A stretch of 20,000 nt of DNA from an uncultured virus (IMG/VR IMGVR_UViG_3300025168_000003) (lineage: Duplodnaviria; Heunggongvirae; Uroviricota; Caudoviricetes; Crassvirales), in IMG/VR virus record IMGVR_UViG_3300025168_000003, one strand, 5' to 3'. The notes below the pieces were generated by a model that saw nothing but the letters and a program-made list of their open reading frames with translations, was not told the DNA's origin and made no database searches. Shown piece after piece: positions 5,346-7,516 of this stretch. The stretch's first letter is position 1; every line of letters begins with the position of its first letter. A program made the translations under genes and the position numbers.

Positions 5346-5514
5346 AATGAAAGAACTAGATTCTATTGCACAAGGTGTAGCGGATCATATGAAAGAAATC
5401 ATTGAAGACAGTGTTGATTGGCAGCTTGCTGAGGTACCACTTGACGGTGATGACTATCAAAGAATGAGAGAATATGTAATTAACGTAGCTTTAAATAAGC
5501 TATTAGGTAATTAA
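5338..5514 (+). CDS. Small hypothetical protein (58 aa)
   Basis: MSKMKELDSIAQGVADHMKEII...; overlaps the previous stop and ends at promoter copy 5. Confidence 0.6.
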   Translation: MSKMKELDSIAQGVADHMKEIIEDSVDWQLAEVPLDGDDYQRMREYVINVALNKLLGN

Positions 5515-5546
5515 TTACAAACAAAACAAATTATCTACTGGATAAT
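5515..5546 (+). promoter_or_regulatory. Class-1 promoter-like motif, copy 5
   Basis: TTACAAACA-N16-GGATAAT, intergenic. Confidence 0.8.
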
Positions 5547-5561
5547 ATAATAAACAAAATT

Positions 5562-5750
5562 ATGTATTGTAAATGCGGCACAGTAGTGCACCCTATCAGA
5601 GTAAATTACGGTTATAAAACGTGTGTTCCTTGTAGCACAGTTCAAGATTATAGTTATATACCTATAATAAACCACAAGACAGGTAATACAATACAAGTCG
5701 TTAGCCAAGAAGTAAGTGCATCAGTGCACAGAGCTTGGAGACGCAAATAG
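5562..5750 (+). CDS. C4 zinc-finger protein (TraR/DksA-like finger)
   Basis: CKCG-x4-P-I-R-x7-CVPC resembles the DksA/TraR C4 finger pattern; the N-terminal coiled-coil is absent. Confidence 0.55.
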   Translation: MYCKCGTVVHPIRVNYGYKTCVPCSTVQDYSYIPIINHKTGNTIQVVSQEVSASVHRAWRRK

Positions 5751-5960
5751 CTAGACGAGTAGCTTAATTAGGATTTAGGTGGGCGAATGCTGTAAAGATA
5801 CCACGACAAATGGTACCTAAATTACATAAGTGAATAGCTAGCAAACGTGAAGAACAACCACAGCTTGAAATAGTAGTGCACGGTTGTGAAGCGGTTTAGC
5901 AGTAGTAAGTATAAGTCAGGGTACACACCGGTAAATGACGTGCATCTTATTGCTGCTTTA
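5751..5960 (+). ncRNA. Candidate structured non-coding RNA (~210 nt)
   Basis: No ORF of 60 aa or more, higher GC, several helices: 5773-5780/5815-5822, 5859-5864/5883-5888, 5898-5909/5946-5957. Confidence 0.5.
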
Positions 5961-5961
5961 T

Positions 5962-6040
5962 GGGGGTGTCATGGTTTTGACGTAGTAAAAAGCCTGCAAA
6001 GGAATTACTACGGAAGACAGTTCGATTCTGTCCACCTCCA
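5962..6040 (+). ncRNA. ssrA: Minimal tmRNA-like RNA: tRNA-like domain only, no tag reading frame
   Basis: Acceptor GGGGGTG/CACCTCC with G3:U70 and A73; tmRNA-type unpaired D-region TCATGGTTTTGA; P2 helix CGTAGTAA/TTACTACG capped by CCT-GCAA-AGG; GAA linker; T arm GACAG-TTCGATT-CTGTC. Confidence 0.8.
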
Positions 6041-6044
6041 CTAA

Positions 6045-6076
6045 TTACAAACAAATTACAAACACTAATGGATAAT
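6045..6076 (+). promoter_or_regulatory. Class-1 promoter-like motif, copy 6
   Basis: TTACAAACA-N16-GGATAAT immediately after the tmRNA-like gene. Confidence 0.8.
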
Positions 6077-6092
6077 ATAATAAATTAAAACT

Positions 6093-6533
6093 ATGACAAA
6101 TCAGTACACATGGCGGCAAGAACGTCAAATGCTCGAAGATTCCTACGCACGTAGGTTATTAGTAGAGTACAACATCAAAGAAGTAACTACTCAAAGGCAA
6201 GCTAAAAATGGCACAAGAGAGTTTGAATTTCCAGTACCTTGCTATTCTAAACAAAGACTAGAATGGTTTAAGTACAAAAAATACAACTTAAAAGATCTAC
6301 CAAGATTAAGACTAGCTACGTTTGAATCAGGTATGGTTAGAAAACAAAATGGCGGCGATAGAGCTTACCAAATAAACCCACAATACAAACAAAATCAAAG
6401 ATATGTGTGGCTTAACAGCGACAATGAAGTTACTGTTAAAGAGTTTGTAGGCAATGCTAGAGCGTTAATACACAATCCATTAGCTAGAATGGTATACATG
6501 TTAAATTATTATCTTAAAAACTATAAACAATGA
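6093..6533 (+). CDS. Hypothetical protein
   Basis: 146-aa ORF after a promoter motif. Confidence 0.75.
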   Translation: MTNQYTWRQERQMLEDSYARRLLVEYNIKEVTTQRQAKNGTREFEFPVPCYSKQRLEWFKYKKYNLKDLPRLRLATFESGMVRKQNGGDRAYQINPQYKQNQRYVWLNSDNEVTVKEFVGNARALIHNPLARMVYMLNYYLKNYKQ

Positions 6534-7440: not shown

Positions 7441-7514
7441 TGCGCGGTGGAGAAGTTGGTTATCTCGCGAGTCTCATAAACTCGAGGTCGAAGGTTCGAG
7501 TCCTTCCTGCGCAC
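7441..7514 (+). tRNA. tRNA-Met(CAT), initiator-like but atypical; CCA not encoded
   Basis: Cloverleaf: acceptor TGCGCGG/CTGCGCA, D stem GAGA/TCTC, anticodon arm CGAGT-CTCATAA-ACTCG, T arm GAAGG-TTCGAGT-CCTTC. Confidence 0.9.
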
Positions 7515-7516
7515 CT

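What the first reader, a model, noticed from the sequence alone, without database searches (positions are those of the whole stretch)
5962..6040. Phage-encoded 'tagless' mini-tmRNA: complete tRNA-like domain with the whole mRNA-like domain replaced by a GNRA hairpin
Seen: a 79-nt element with 5' GGGGGTG-TCATGGTTTTGAC and 3' GAA-GACAG-TTCGATT-CTGTC-CACCTCC-A. It folds into a 7-bp acceptor stem with G3:U70 and A73, a stem-less D region, an 8-bp helix (5981-5988/6005-6012) and a canonical T arm. Only 16 nt, including CCT-GCAA-AGG, lie where tmRNA normally has roughly 270 nt of pseudoknots and tag ORF. Established: G3:U70/A73 are AlaRS determinants; the stem-less D loop and short linker are the SmpB-binding surface of tmRNA; MLD-less tmRNAs are known from jakobid and oomycete mitochondria. 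Inference: the phage makes an alanyl-chargeable SmpB ligand. It could titrate SmpB and block trans-translation, or take nascent chains from stalled ribosomes without adding a degradation tag, for example when host nucleases cut phage mRNAs or tRNAs. Both ends and P2 are intact and closed by a tetraloop, which argues against an att-site remnant. I am not aware of this being described in phages.
Basis: partly seen in the sequence, partly recalled or inferred. Interest (0 to 1): 0.92.

Follow-up and report, generated by a model that had tools for sequence, protein, structure and literature searches.

The report
Phage tag-less mini-tmRNA gene
This marine phage carries a real 79-base gene that copies only the alanine-accepting, tRNA-like end of the bacterial ribosome-rescue RNA (tmRNA); one such RNA was already published from mycobacteriophage DS6A, and the form turns out to be common in uncultured phages, where it most likely competes with the host's rescue-and-tag system.

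Summary
Window 5962-6040 (+) matches Rfam tmRNA end to end (63.1 bits, cut-off 47), with 304 model positions replaced by 12 nt. It folds as described.

It belongs to a large, diverse phage family. Two pattern scans of viral contigs gave 61 and at least 120 stretches. Base pairs covary strongly in P2, the T arm and acceptor pair 5:68. U70 and A73 are present in 98 of 98 distinct sequences, although the pattern left both free. In five syntenic relatives the RNA is 82-98% identical, while most flanks are 65-82%.

The claim that this is new in phages does not hold. DS6A has a published 'TLD only' tmRNA, and a similar molecule is reported to inhibit tmRNA, perhaps by titrating SmpB (PMC4131195, PMC11915505). 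My model built from the family hits DS6A at 61.9 bits. This scan also found the kind on at least six other genomes.

No SmpB, full tmRNA or integrase accompanies it.

Verdict: a new member of a known kind. It is probably an alanine-charged competitor of host tmRNA. The function is inferred, not shown.

The parts
5962..6040 (+). Mini-tmRNA gene (tRNA-like domain only), 79 nt up to the discriminator A73. The next bases are CTA, so CCA is not encoded.
   Evidence: Rfam RF00023 63.1 bits. Own family model R1 88.2 bits. Fold z = -3.74.
5962..5968 (+). Acceptor stem, 5' strand GGGGGTG. G3 is at 5964.
   Evidence: Pairs with 6033-6039. Pair 5:68 covaries (GC 17, CG 15, AU 8 of 42 sequences). G3:U70 is present in 42 of 42.
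5969..5980 (+). D-loop analogue without a stem (TCATGGTTTTGA). It carries the conserved tmRNA GG..UU.GA.
   Evidence: Aligned to the conserved positions of the Rfam tmRNA consensus. The GGTTTTGAC form occurs in 19 of 31 Bacteroidia tmRNAs sampled.
5981..5988 (+). P2 helix, 5' strand.
   Evidence: 7 of 8 pairs show changes on both sides across 42 sequences.
5989..6004 (+). 16-nt cap that replaces the whole mRNA-like domain: an A-rich bulge, the hairpin CCT-GCAA-AGG (5993-6002), then AA.
   Evidence: Sequence. Rfam shows 304 model positions replaced by 12 nt. The hairpin pairs are only 74% kept in the family.
6005..6012 (+). P2 helix, 3' strand. It is followed by the linker G-A-A (6013-6015), which completes the tmRNA GAC/GGA joint.
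   Evidence: The 4 nt before the T stem are GGAC in 70 of 98 distinct family sequences and GGAA, as here, in 10 of 98.
6016..6032 (+). T arm: GACAG, loop TTCGATT, CTGTC.
   Evidence: 4 of 5 pairs show changes on both sides, with 100% of cells paired. The stem is 5/5 paired in 119 of 119 pattern hits.
6033..6040 (+). Acceptor stem, 3' strand CACCTCC (U70 at 6037), plus the discriminator A73 (6040).
   Evidence: U70 and A73 are present in 98 of 98 distinct sequences although the pattern left both positions free.

Best explanation
The element is a phage gene for a 'TLD-only' tmRNA.

Shown:
- It has the full tRNA-like domain of tmRNA: acceptor stem with G3:U70 and A73, stem-less D region, P2 with the GAC/GGA joint, and T arm.
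- It has no resume codon, no tag frame and no pseudoknots.
- It is under strong purifying selection, and it belongs to a large phage family that includes the published DS6A RNA.

Inferred:
1. The RNA is cut out of an early transcript by the host's tRNA-processing enzymes and receives CCA.
2. Host AlaRS charges it with alanine.
3. It binds host SmpB (the phage encodes none) and EF-Tu.
4. It thereby competes with host tmRNA for SmpB and for ribosomes stalled on broken mRNAs.

The net effect would be less ssrA tagging and less proteolysis of unfinished proteins during infection. Nascent chains would be passed to an RNA that adds one alanine and no degradation tag. How the ribosome is then released is unknown.
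For: Identity:
- RF00023 at 63.1 bits against a cut-off of 47, matching all highly conserved TLD positions.
- Model R1, built from 42 family sequences, hits the published DS6A element (JN698994 28478-28557) at 61.9 bits, E 7.8e-12.

Selection:
- 93.9% of cells are paired, against 67.6% in shuffles (0 of 500 reach it) and 40-52% when partners are slid.
- 15 of 23 pairs show changes on both sides.
- In five syntenic relatives the RNA is 82-98% identical, while most flanking stretches are 65-82%.

Charging appears to be selected:
- U70 and A73 are present in 98 of 98 distinct sequences with both positions free in the pattern.
- With a pattern that ignores the acceptor, 72 of the 78 sequences with a well-paired acceptor have G3:U70, and 74 of 78 have A73.

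Dependence on the host:
- SmpB (PF01668) is found in 0 of 5 phage records, 3 of them at least 98% complete.
- No full or permuted tmRNA is found.

tRNA-like processing:
- The element directly abuts tRNA genes in L086, L068 and L128.
- CCA is encoded in 42 of 98 distinct sequences.

Literature (passages only):
- The DS6A form is said to inhibit endogenous tmRNA in E. coli (PMC11915505).
- A TLD-only tmRNA undergoes kirromycin-sensitive peptidyl transfer in vitro (PMC3895274, citing Shimizu and Ueda 2006).
Against: - Nothing here shows transcription, RNA ends, CCA addition, alanylation or SmpB binding.
- Contigs from RNA libraries cover the element, but they cannot exclude carried-over DNA.
- No sigma-70-like promoter lies upstream on the + strand.
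- According to the citing passage, inhibition did not need chargeability. A plain sponge would therefore suffice, and the ribosome-entry half of the model is not required by published data.
- Off-types exist. Among the 78 sequences with a well-paired acceptor, 4 have G3:C70 under my simple register (for example L378), and some of these may be mis-registered. 13 of 119 loci have two non-pairs in the acceptor stem and one has three.
- No translation-related protein is linked to the element that could explain release.
- Why a phage would gain from blocking rescue is unknown.
- Mao et al. 2009 itself could not be read.
Confidence: 0.6

Rival explanations
1. Pure SmpB sponge. The RNA only sequesters free SmpB. 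It need not be charged and never enters the ribosome.
For: [quoted passage not shown] The SmpB-facing D/T elbow and the GAC/GGA joint are conserved.
Against: G3:U70, A73 and a fully paired acceptor are kept in nearly all members (98 of 98; 72 and 74 of 78). A sponge would not need them. The EF-Tu-facing acceptor and T helices are intact, and 42 of 98 members encode CCA.
Confidence: 0.2
2. A tRNA-shaped RNA with another target. It could be a decoy or ligand for host RNases (for example RNase R, which works with tmRNA-SmpB), for tRNA-cutting defence nucleases or for type III CRISPR complexes. It could also be merely an RNase P/Z processing signal in the early transcript.
For: A phage anti-CRISPR, AcrIIIA1, uses t(m)RNA fragments that bind Cas10-Csm and RNase R (PMC11662646, passages). 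The element sits among or beside tRNA genes in several phages.
Against: The features conserved are specifically those of tmRNA (D region, joint, alanine identity), not of a generic tRNA. A processing signal would not need G3:U70. There is no linked nuclease or Acr-like gene; the largest shared neighbour family covers only 10 of 80 loci.
Confidence: 0.1
3. One half of a new split tmRNA whose message part is encoded elsewhere in the phage or supplied by the host.
For: Two-piece tmRNAs exist, and phages carry them (PMC9004378, passages).
Against: P2 is closed within the molecule by its own hairpin. No alpha- or beta-type permuted tmRNA and no second RF00023 hit occurs in the close relatives' records, two of them at least 98% complete. 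The cyanobacterial and the new permuted models were not run on those records.
Confidence: 0.03
4. A remnant of ssrA: an attP site or a decaying pseudogene picked up from a host.
For: Phages often integrate into ssrA and carry its 3' end (PMC9004378, passage).
Against: Both the 5' and 3' halves are present and they pair. Compensatory changes are found in 15 of 23 pairs. The element is far more conserved than its flanks. No integrase is found among 41 window ORFs scanned. The neighbours are early and replication genes of a lytic-looking phage.
Confidence: 0.02
5. An assembly deletion of a full-length tmRNA.
For: None found.
Against: The same 78-79-nt form is found in five syntenic contigs from different samples and in at least 120 other viral contigs. 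Contigs of four further public runs carry it.
Confidence: 0.01

Closest known systems
'TLD only' (CDS-less) tmRNA of Mycobacterium phage DS6A (JN698994 28478-28557; tmRNA Website tmID 11587 according to PMC4131195)
   Same: Same architecture and size (80 nt against 79 nt): a 7-bp acceptor stem with G3:U70 and A73, a stem-less D region, P2 capped by an A-rich bulge plus a small hairpin, a T arm, and no message. It matches my family model at 61.9 bits. Both are encoded by phages that lack SmpB; this was tested only for relatives of the window.
   Different: The sequences are too far apart for BLAST to link them. DS6A is GC-rich and comes from an actinobacterial phage, whereas this element is AT-rich and comes from a marine phage whose closest cultured relatives infect Flavobacteriia. 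The DS6A locus does not reach Rfam's gathering score; the window does. The DS6A element is not annotated in its records.
Bacterial tmRNA (Rfam RF00023), for example E. coli ssrA
   Same: All conserved TLD nucleotides and helices are shared. The D-loop variant GGTTTTGAC matches the likely host class, being present in 19 of 31 Bacteroidia tmRNAs.
   Different: The element lacks P2b onward: four pseudoknots, the resume codon, the tag frame and the stop. 304 model positions are replaced by 12 nt, compared with 363 nt in E. coli.
Mitochondrial tmRNA of jakobids and oomycetes, and the roughly 65-bp plastid forms (PMC11915505)
   Same: These also have no tag reading frame and keep only the tRNA-like part. 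They co-occur with an SmpB encoded elsewhere (passage).
   Different: The mitochondrial genes are usually permuted and belong to an organelle's own rescue system. Here the RNA is made by a virus and must use the victim's SmpB.
Engineered TLD constructs used in vitro (as cited in PMC3895274)
   Same: tmRNA cut down to the TLD. It accepts a peptide on the ribosome in an EF-Tu-dependent way (passage).
   Different: Those are laboratory constructs. Here the same design is natural and conserved.

Membership tests
tmRNA tRNA-like domain (RF00023), TLD-only subclass | 7-bp acceptor stem with G3:U70 and discriminator A73 | tested here: met
   5962-5968 pairs with 6033-6039, and A73 is at 6040. G3:U70 is present in 42 of 42 aligned family members.
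tmRNA tRNA-like domain (RF00023), TLD-only subclass | Stem-less D region with conserved GG..UU.GAC, and a P2 helix closed by the GAC/GGA joint | tested here: met
   Rfam alignment. P2 covaries in 7 of 8 pairs. The joint is GGAA here, as in 10 of 98 distinct family sequences; it is GGAC in 70 of 98.
tmRNA tRNA-like domain (RF00023), TLD-only subclass | T arm with a GUUCGAUUC-type loop | tested here: met
tmRNA tRNA-like domain (RF00023), TLD-only subclass | Score above Rfam's gathering threshold | tested here: met
   63.1 bits against 47.
tmRNA tRNA-like domain (RF00023), TLD-only subclass | Homology to the published DS6A TLD-only RNA | tested here: met
   Model R1, built without DS6A, scores DS6A at 61.9 bits, E 7.8e-12.
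Full-length tmRNA | mRNA-like domain: resume codon, tag frame, stop and pseudoknots | tested here: not met
   Only 16 nt lie between the P2 strands. ARAGORN finds no tag peptide.
tmRNA (functional definition) | Alanylation by AlaRS, and binding of SmpB and EF-Tu | not testable with these tools
   Only the sequence determinants can be seen.
Mitochondrial tmRNA (RF02544) | Best match to the mt-tmRNA model | tested here: inconclusive
   It is not reported. However, overlapping matches within one clan are reduced to the best, so its own score is unknown.
Ordinary tRNA (tRNA-Ala) | Anticodon arm with a 7-nt loop, and a D stem | tested here: not met
   ARAGORN makes no call. The 8-bp P2 with a capped bulge replaces the arm, and loop sizes vary in the family.
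ssrA-derived attP site | Only the 3' part of ssrA, next to an integrase | tested here: not met
   Both halves are present. No integrase is found among 41 ORFs.

The most novel reading that the evidence does not exclude
Mini-tmRNAs are a widespread phage tool that reroutes stalled ribosomes. The alanine-charged RNA, carried by host SmpB and EF-Tu, takes the nascent chain from ribosomes stranded on cut mRNAs. Such cuts could come from host RNA-cleaving defences or from the phage's own host shut-off. The chain is then released with a single extra alanine and no degradation tag. This would protect phage proteins and free ribosomes while shutting off host tagging. It would be a natural, tag-free rescue pathway run by a virus.
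Probability: 0.25. Interest if true: 0.75.

Novelty: new member of a known kind. Interest (0 to 1): 0.45.

Why it matters
tmRNA-SmpB is the main ribosome-rescue system of bacteria. A virus that makes only the 'entry ticket' part of tmRNA is a natural experiment on what that part does alone.

The kind has been in print since DS6A, so this copy is not a discovery of principle. My four literature searches found three points that are not in print:
- The form is common and diverse in uncultured phages: at least 120 viral contigs against 27 hits in 596 billion bases of cellular genomes.
- The alanine identity is kept almost without exception.
- It persists in phages that carry one tRNA gene or none.

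Together these say that selection acts on a charged RNA, not only on an SmpB sponge. That gives a clear and cheap set of experiments.

Tried and rejected
- BLAST of the element and its surroundings against GenBank phages found no match. A second family member also found nothing, and DS6A finds only itself. Cultured carriers could therefore not be listed.
- No whole genome is held for the window.
- R1 found nothing in the five nearest cultured Flavobacteriia-type phages, 0 of 5.
- I looked for a linked protein partner. ORFs within 4 kb of the element in 80 loci were clustered, and the largest family covers 10 of 80 loci, all in one clade. Of ten neighbour proteins scanned in Pfam, only a zinc ribbon and a YqaJ recombinase were named.
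- The sigma-70 promoter scan found nothing on the + strand upstream. The likely host class uses other promoters, so this says little.
- Public runs: the stretch is held by marine metagenomes. Contigs from three RNA libraries (two studies) cover the element, among them an 85-nt contig spanning 5959-6043. Contigs break where relatives diverge and may come from DNA, so this gives no verdict on expression or RNA ends.
- The Rfam low-threshold scan of 5500-6200 found no other family.
- Mao et al. 2009 is not held.
- The conserved region upstream did not yield a convincing consensus fold. One of my coordinate ranges there was wrong.

Full report
**What is there**

Window 5962-6040 (+) reads GGGGGTG / TCATGGTTTTGA / CGTAGTAA / AAAG-CCT-GCAA-AGG-AA / TTACTACG / GAA / GACAG-TTCGATT-CTGTC / CACCTCC / A.

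Rfam's tmRNA model RF00023 matches 5962-6043 from its first to its last position. The score is 63.1 bits (gathering score 47), E 9e-23. 304 internal model positions are replaced by 12 nt. E. coli ssrA, run as a positive control, gives 295.8 bits over 363 nt.

The RNA folds into the predicted shape at -29.5 kcal/mol. None of 200 shuffles fold as well, and z is -3.74. ARAGORN, which needs a tag frame, reports only tRNA-Met at 7441-7515.

**It is a gene family, not a one-off**

- A strict pattern of the conserved TLD letters, with a 20-50-nt gap, found 61 stretches in viral contigs. These are 41 distinct sequences.
- A looser pattern left positions 5, 6, 70 and 73 and part of the T loop free.
- Of the 119, all have a 5/5 T stem. 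105 have a 7/7 acceptor stem, 13 have 5/7 and one has 4/7.
- They form 98 distinct sequences of 63-87 nt, mostly 78-79 nt. All 98 end in CTCCA, that is U70 and A73, although both were free. 42 of 98 encode CCA; the window has CTA.
- On an alignment of the window plus the 41 strict hits, 93.9% of cells are standard pairs. Column shuffles give 67.6% (0 of 500 reach the observed value), and sliding the partners gives 40-52%.
- 15 of 23 pairs show changes on both sides: 7 of 8 in P2, 4 of 5 in the T stem, and acceptor pair 5:68. The small capping hairpin is only 74% kept, and its GNRA loop is clade-specific.

Those patterns fixed G1-G4, so I ran a third scan anchored only on the D and T loops. It gave 121 matches in 120 loci, or 92 distinct sequences. 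Under a simple register, 78 have at least 6/7 acceptor pairs. Of these 78, 72 have G3:U70 and 74 have A73. Four are G:C, among them L378. The other 14 distinct sequences include ordinary tRNAs and unrelated hits. Alanine identity is therefore the rule, with a few exceptions.

**Surroundings**

The window is phage DNA. A run of small unknown ORFs is followed by genes for DNA ligase, a sigma factor, Erf, an exonuclease, primase-helicase, thymidylate synthase, MazG and ribonucleotide reductase. No integrase is found among the 41 ORFs scanned. The closest cultured relatives by primase-helicase are phages of Cellulophaga (42.8% amino-acid identity), Tenacibaculum and Flavobacterium. The DNA is held by marine metagenomes.

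Five viral contigs are syntenic with the window (L066, L135, L086, L131, L122). In them most flanking stretches are 65-82% identical in nucleotides, with a few short blocks higher. The RNA is 92.1%, 97.7%, 96.3%, 82.1% and 82.4% identical. That is the signature of selection on the RNA itself. It also excludes an assembly deletion.

In other phages the element directly abuts tRNA genes: tRNA-Met in L086, a 20-tRNA array in L068, and tRNA-Thr in L128. This fits processing by the tRNA machinery. The close relatives, however, carry only 1, 1 and 0 tRNA genes in the whole record. The mini-tmRNA is therefore not a passenger of big tRNA arrays.

**What the phage lacks**

- SmpB (PF01668) is found in 0 of 5 phage records, three of them at least 98% complete. 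The same search rings in 10 of 14 control genomes.
- RF00023 finds only the mini form in 5 of 5 records, plus one sub-threshold second hit in a 194-kb phage.
- Alpha- and beta-type permuted tmRNA models find nothing in the three close relatives' records.
- No protein family accompanies the element across lineages. The largest neighbour cluster covers 10 of 80 loci, all from one clade. The neighbours that could be named are a zinc ribbon and a YqaJ recombinase.

The RNA must therefore act with host factors.

**Virus enrichment and host match**

The same loose pattern found only 27 stretches in one genome for each of 185,579 bacterial and archaeal species. 16 of these loci match my family model, and most are MAG contigs.

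The window's D-loop form GGTTTTGAC is a minority among the phage RNAs: T at that position in 16 of 98. It is common in tmRNAs of class Bacteroidia, occurring in 19 of 31 examined from a sample in which 54 of 61 genomes had a tmRNA. This agrees with a Flavobacteriia host and with an RNA shaped to that host's SmpB. It is a weak argument.

**What is already known**

Notes from this scan pointed to mycobacteriophage DS6A, and I checked that lead.

- PMC4131195 lists 'Mycobacterium phage DS6A (TLD only)'. [quoted passage not shown]
- PMC11915505 counts 9 'Standard, no CDS' sequences among 97,179. It says the DS6A form inhibits endogenous tmRNA when expressed in E. coli. It also reports roughly 65-bp plastid forms and tag-less mitochondrial tmRNAs (passages).
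- Mao et al. 2009 is not held, so I know it only from these passages.
- My covariance model R1, built without DS6A, matches JN698994 28478-28557 at 61.9 bits, E 7.8e-12. The match shares the same A-rich bulge and the CCGCACGCGG cap seen in several uncultured members.
- Rfam's gathering search does not report the DS6A copy, and the record does not annotate it.
- PMC3895274 notes that a tmRNA truncated to the TLD undergoes kirromycin-sensitive peptidyl transfer in vitro (passage). A TLD alone can therefore enter the A site and take the peptide.

Four full-text searches found no paper describing such RNAs as a widespread phage family. Phage tmRNA surveys that rely on ARAGORN (PMC9004378) would miss them.

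**How it most likely works**

Shown: a tmRNA TLD without a message, conserved by selection on its structure and on its alanine identity, in phages without SmpB.

Inferred: it is processed like a tRNA, receives CCA, is charged by AlaRS and binds host SmpB and EF-Tu. It then competes with host tmRNA. The published inhibition supports competition. The near-invariant G3:U70, A73 and acceptor stem suggest that the charged form matters, and hence that the RNA also enters stalled ribosomes and takes the nascent chain without adding a tag.

What happens next is open, as is the benefit to the phage. The next step could be drop-off with hydrolysis, or an ArfB-type factor. The benefit could be sparing its proteins from tagging, freeing ribosomes when mRNAs are cut, or disabling a host pathway. 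I give 0.6 to the charged-competitor model and 0.2 to a pure sponge. Small weights go to a different target (RNase R, defence nucleases or Cas10-Csm, an idea from PMC11662646), a split tmRNA, a remnant, or an artefact.

**Verdict**

The novelty claim is wrong. This is a new member of a known kind, and this scan has met the kind on at least six other genomes. The useful additions are the breadth of the family, the strength of selection on the alanine identity, and its persistence in phages with few or no tRNA genes.

Noticed in passing
window 5748-5772 and 5825-5842: Two boxes (TAGCTAGACGAGTAGCTTAATTAGG and CATAAGTGAATAGCTAGC) lie 120-215 nt upstream of the mini-tmRNA. They are nearly invariant in four of the five syntenic relatives, while the 50-odd nt between them vary and seem to keep a hairpin. 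Each box occurs once in the window. There is no Rfam match. They could be a promoter or operator, or another small RNA.
   Followed up: partly
window 7441-7515: tRNA-Met (CAT) lies 1.4 kb downstream on the same strand. Relatives carry a different single tRNA (Gln in L066), a tRNA-Met directly abutting the mini-tmRNA (L086), or none (G003).
   Followed up: partly
L066 about 5940-6000: Directly upstream of the mini-tmRNA lies a T-arm-like sequence (TGAGG-TTCGAAT-CCTCA) that ARAGORN does not call as a tRNA. The same flank appears as loose ends of RNA-library contigs. It may be a degenerate tRNA or a second tRNA-like element.
   Followed up: no
L069, L108, L117, L121, L125, L129, L141, L177 and others (13 of 119 loci): Most of these 13 belong to one clade of mini-tmRNAs with the acceptor GGGGTGG / CACCTCC. 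It has two non-standard pairs (U5.C68, G6.A67) kept across distinct sequences. L103 has a related GGGGCGG form.
   Followed up: no
L190 2339-2414 and 2501-2563: A MAG contig labelled as archaeal carries two family-model matches 87 nt apart (47.8 and 60.1 bits). This looks like a tandem pair of a longer and a short mini-tmRNA, probably on a phage contig that was binned by mistake.
   Followed up: no
L378 (viral contig): A mini-tmRNA-like RNA with a perfect TLD shape but the acceptor GGGCCTG / CGGGCCC, which gives G3:C70 and so no alanine identity.
   Followed up: no
L064, L090, L104, L115, L130, L132, L133, L147: A 63-64-nt size class in which P2 is a plain 6-bp hairpin, with no bulge and no second hairpin. 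This is the smallest form seen.
   Followed up: no
JN698994 / NC_023744 28478-28557 (L181 979-1058): The published DS6A TLD-only tmRNA has no feature in its GenBank or RefSeq record, and Rfam's gathering search misses it.
   Followed up: yes
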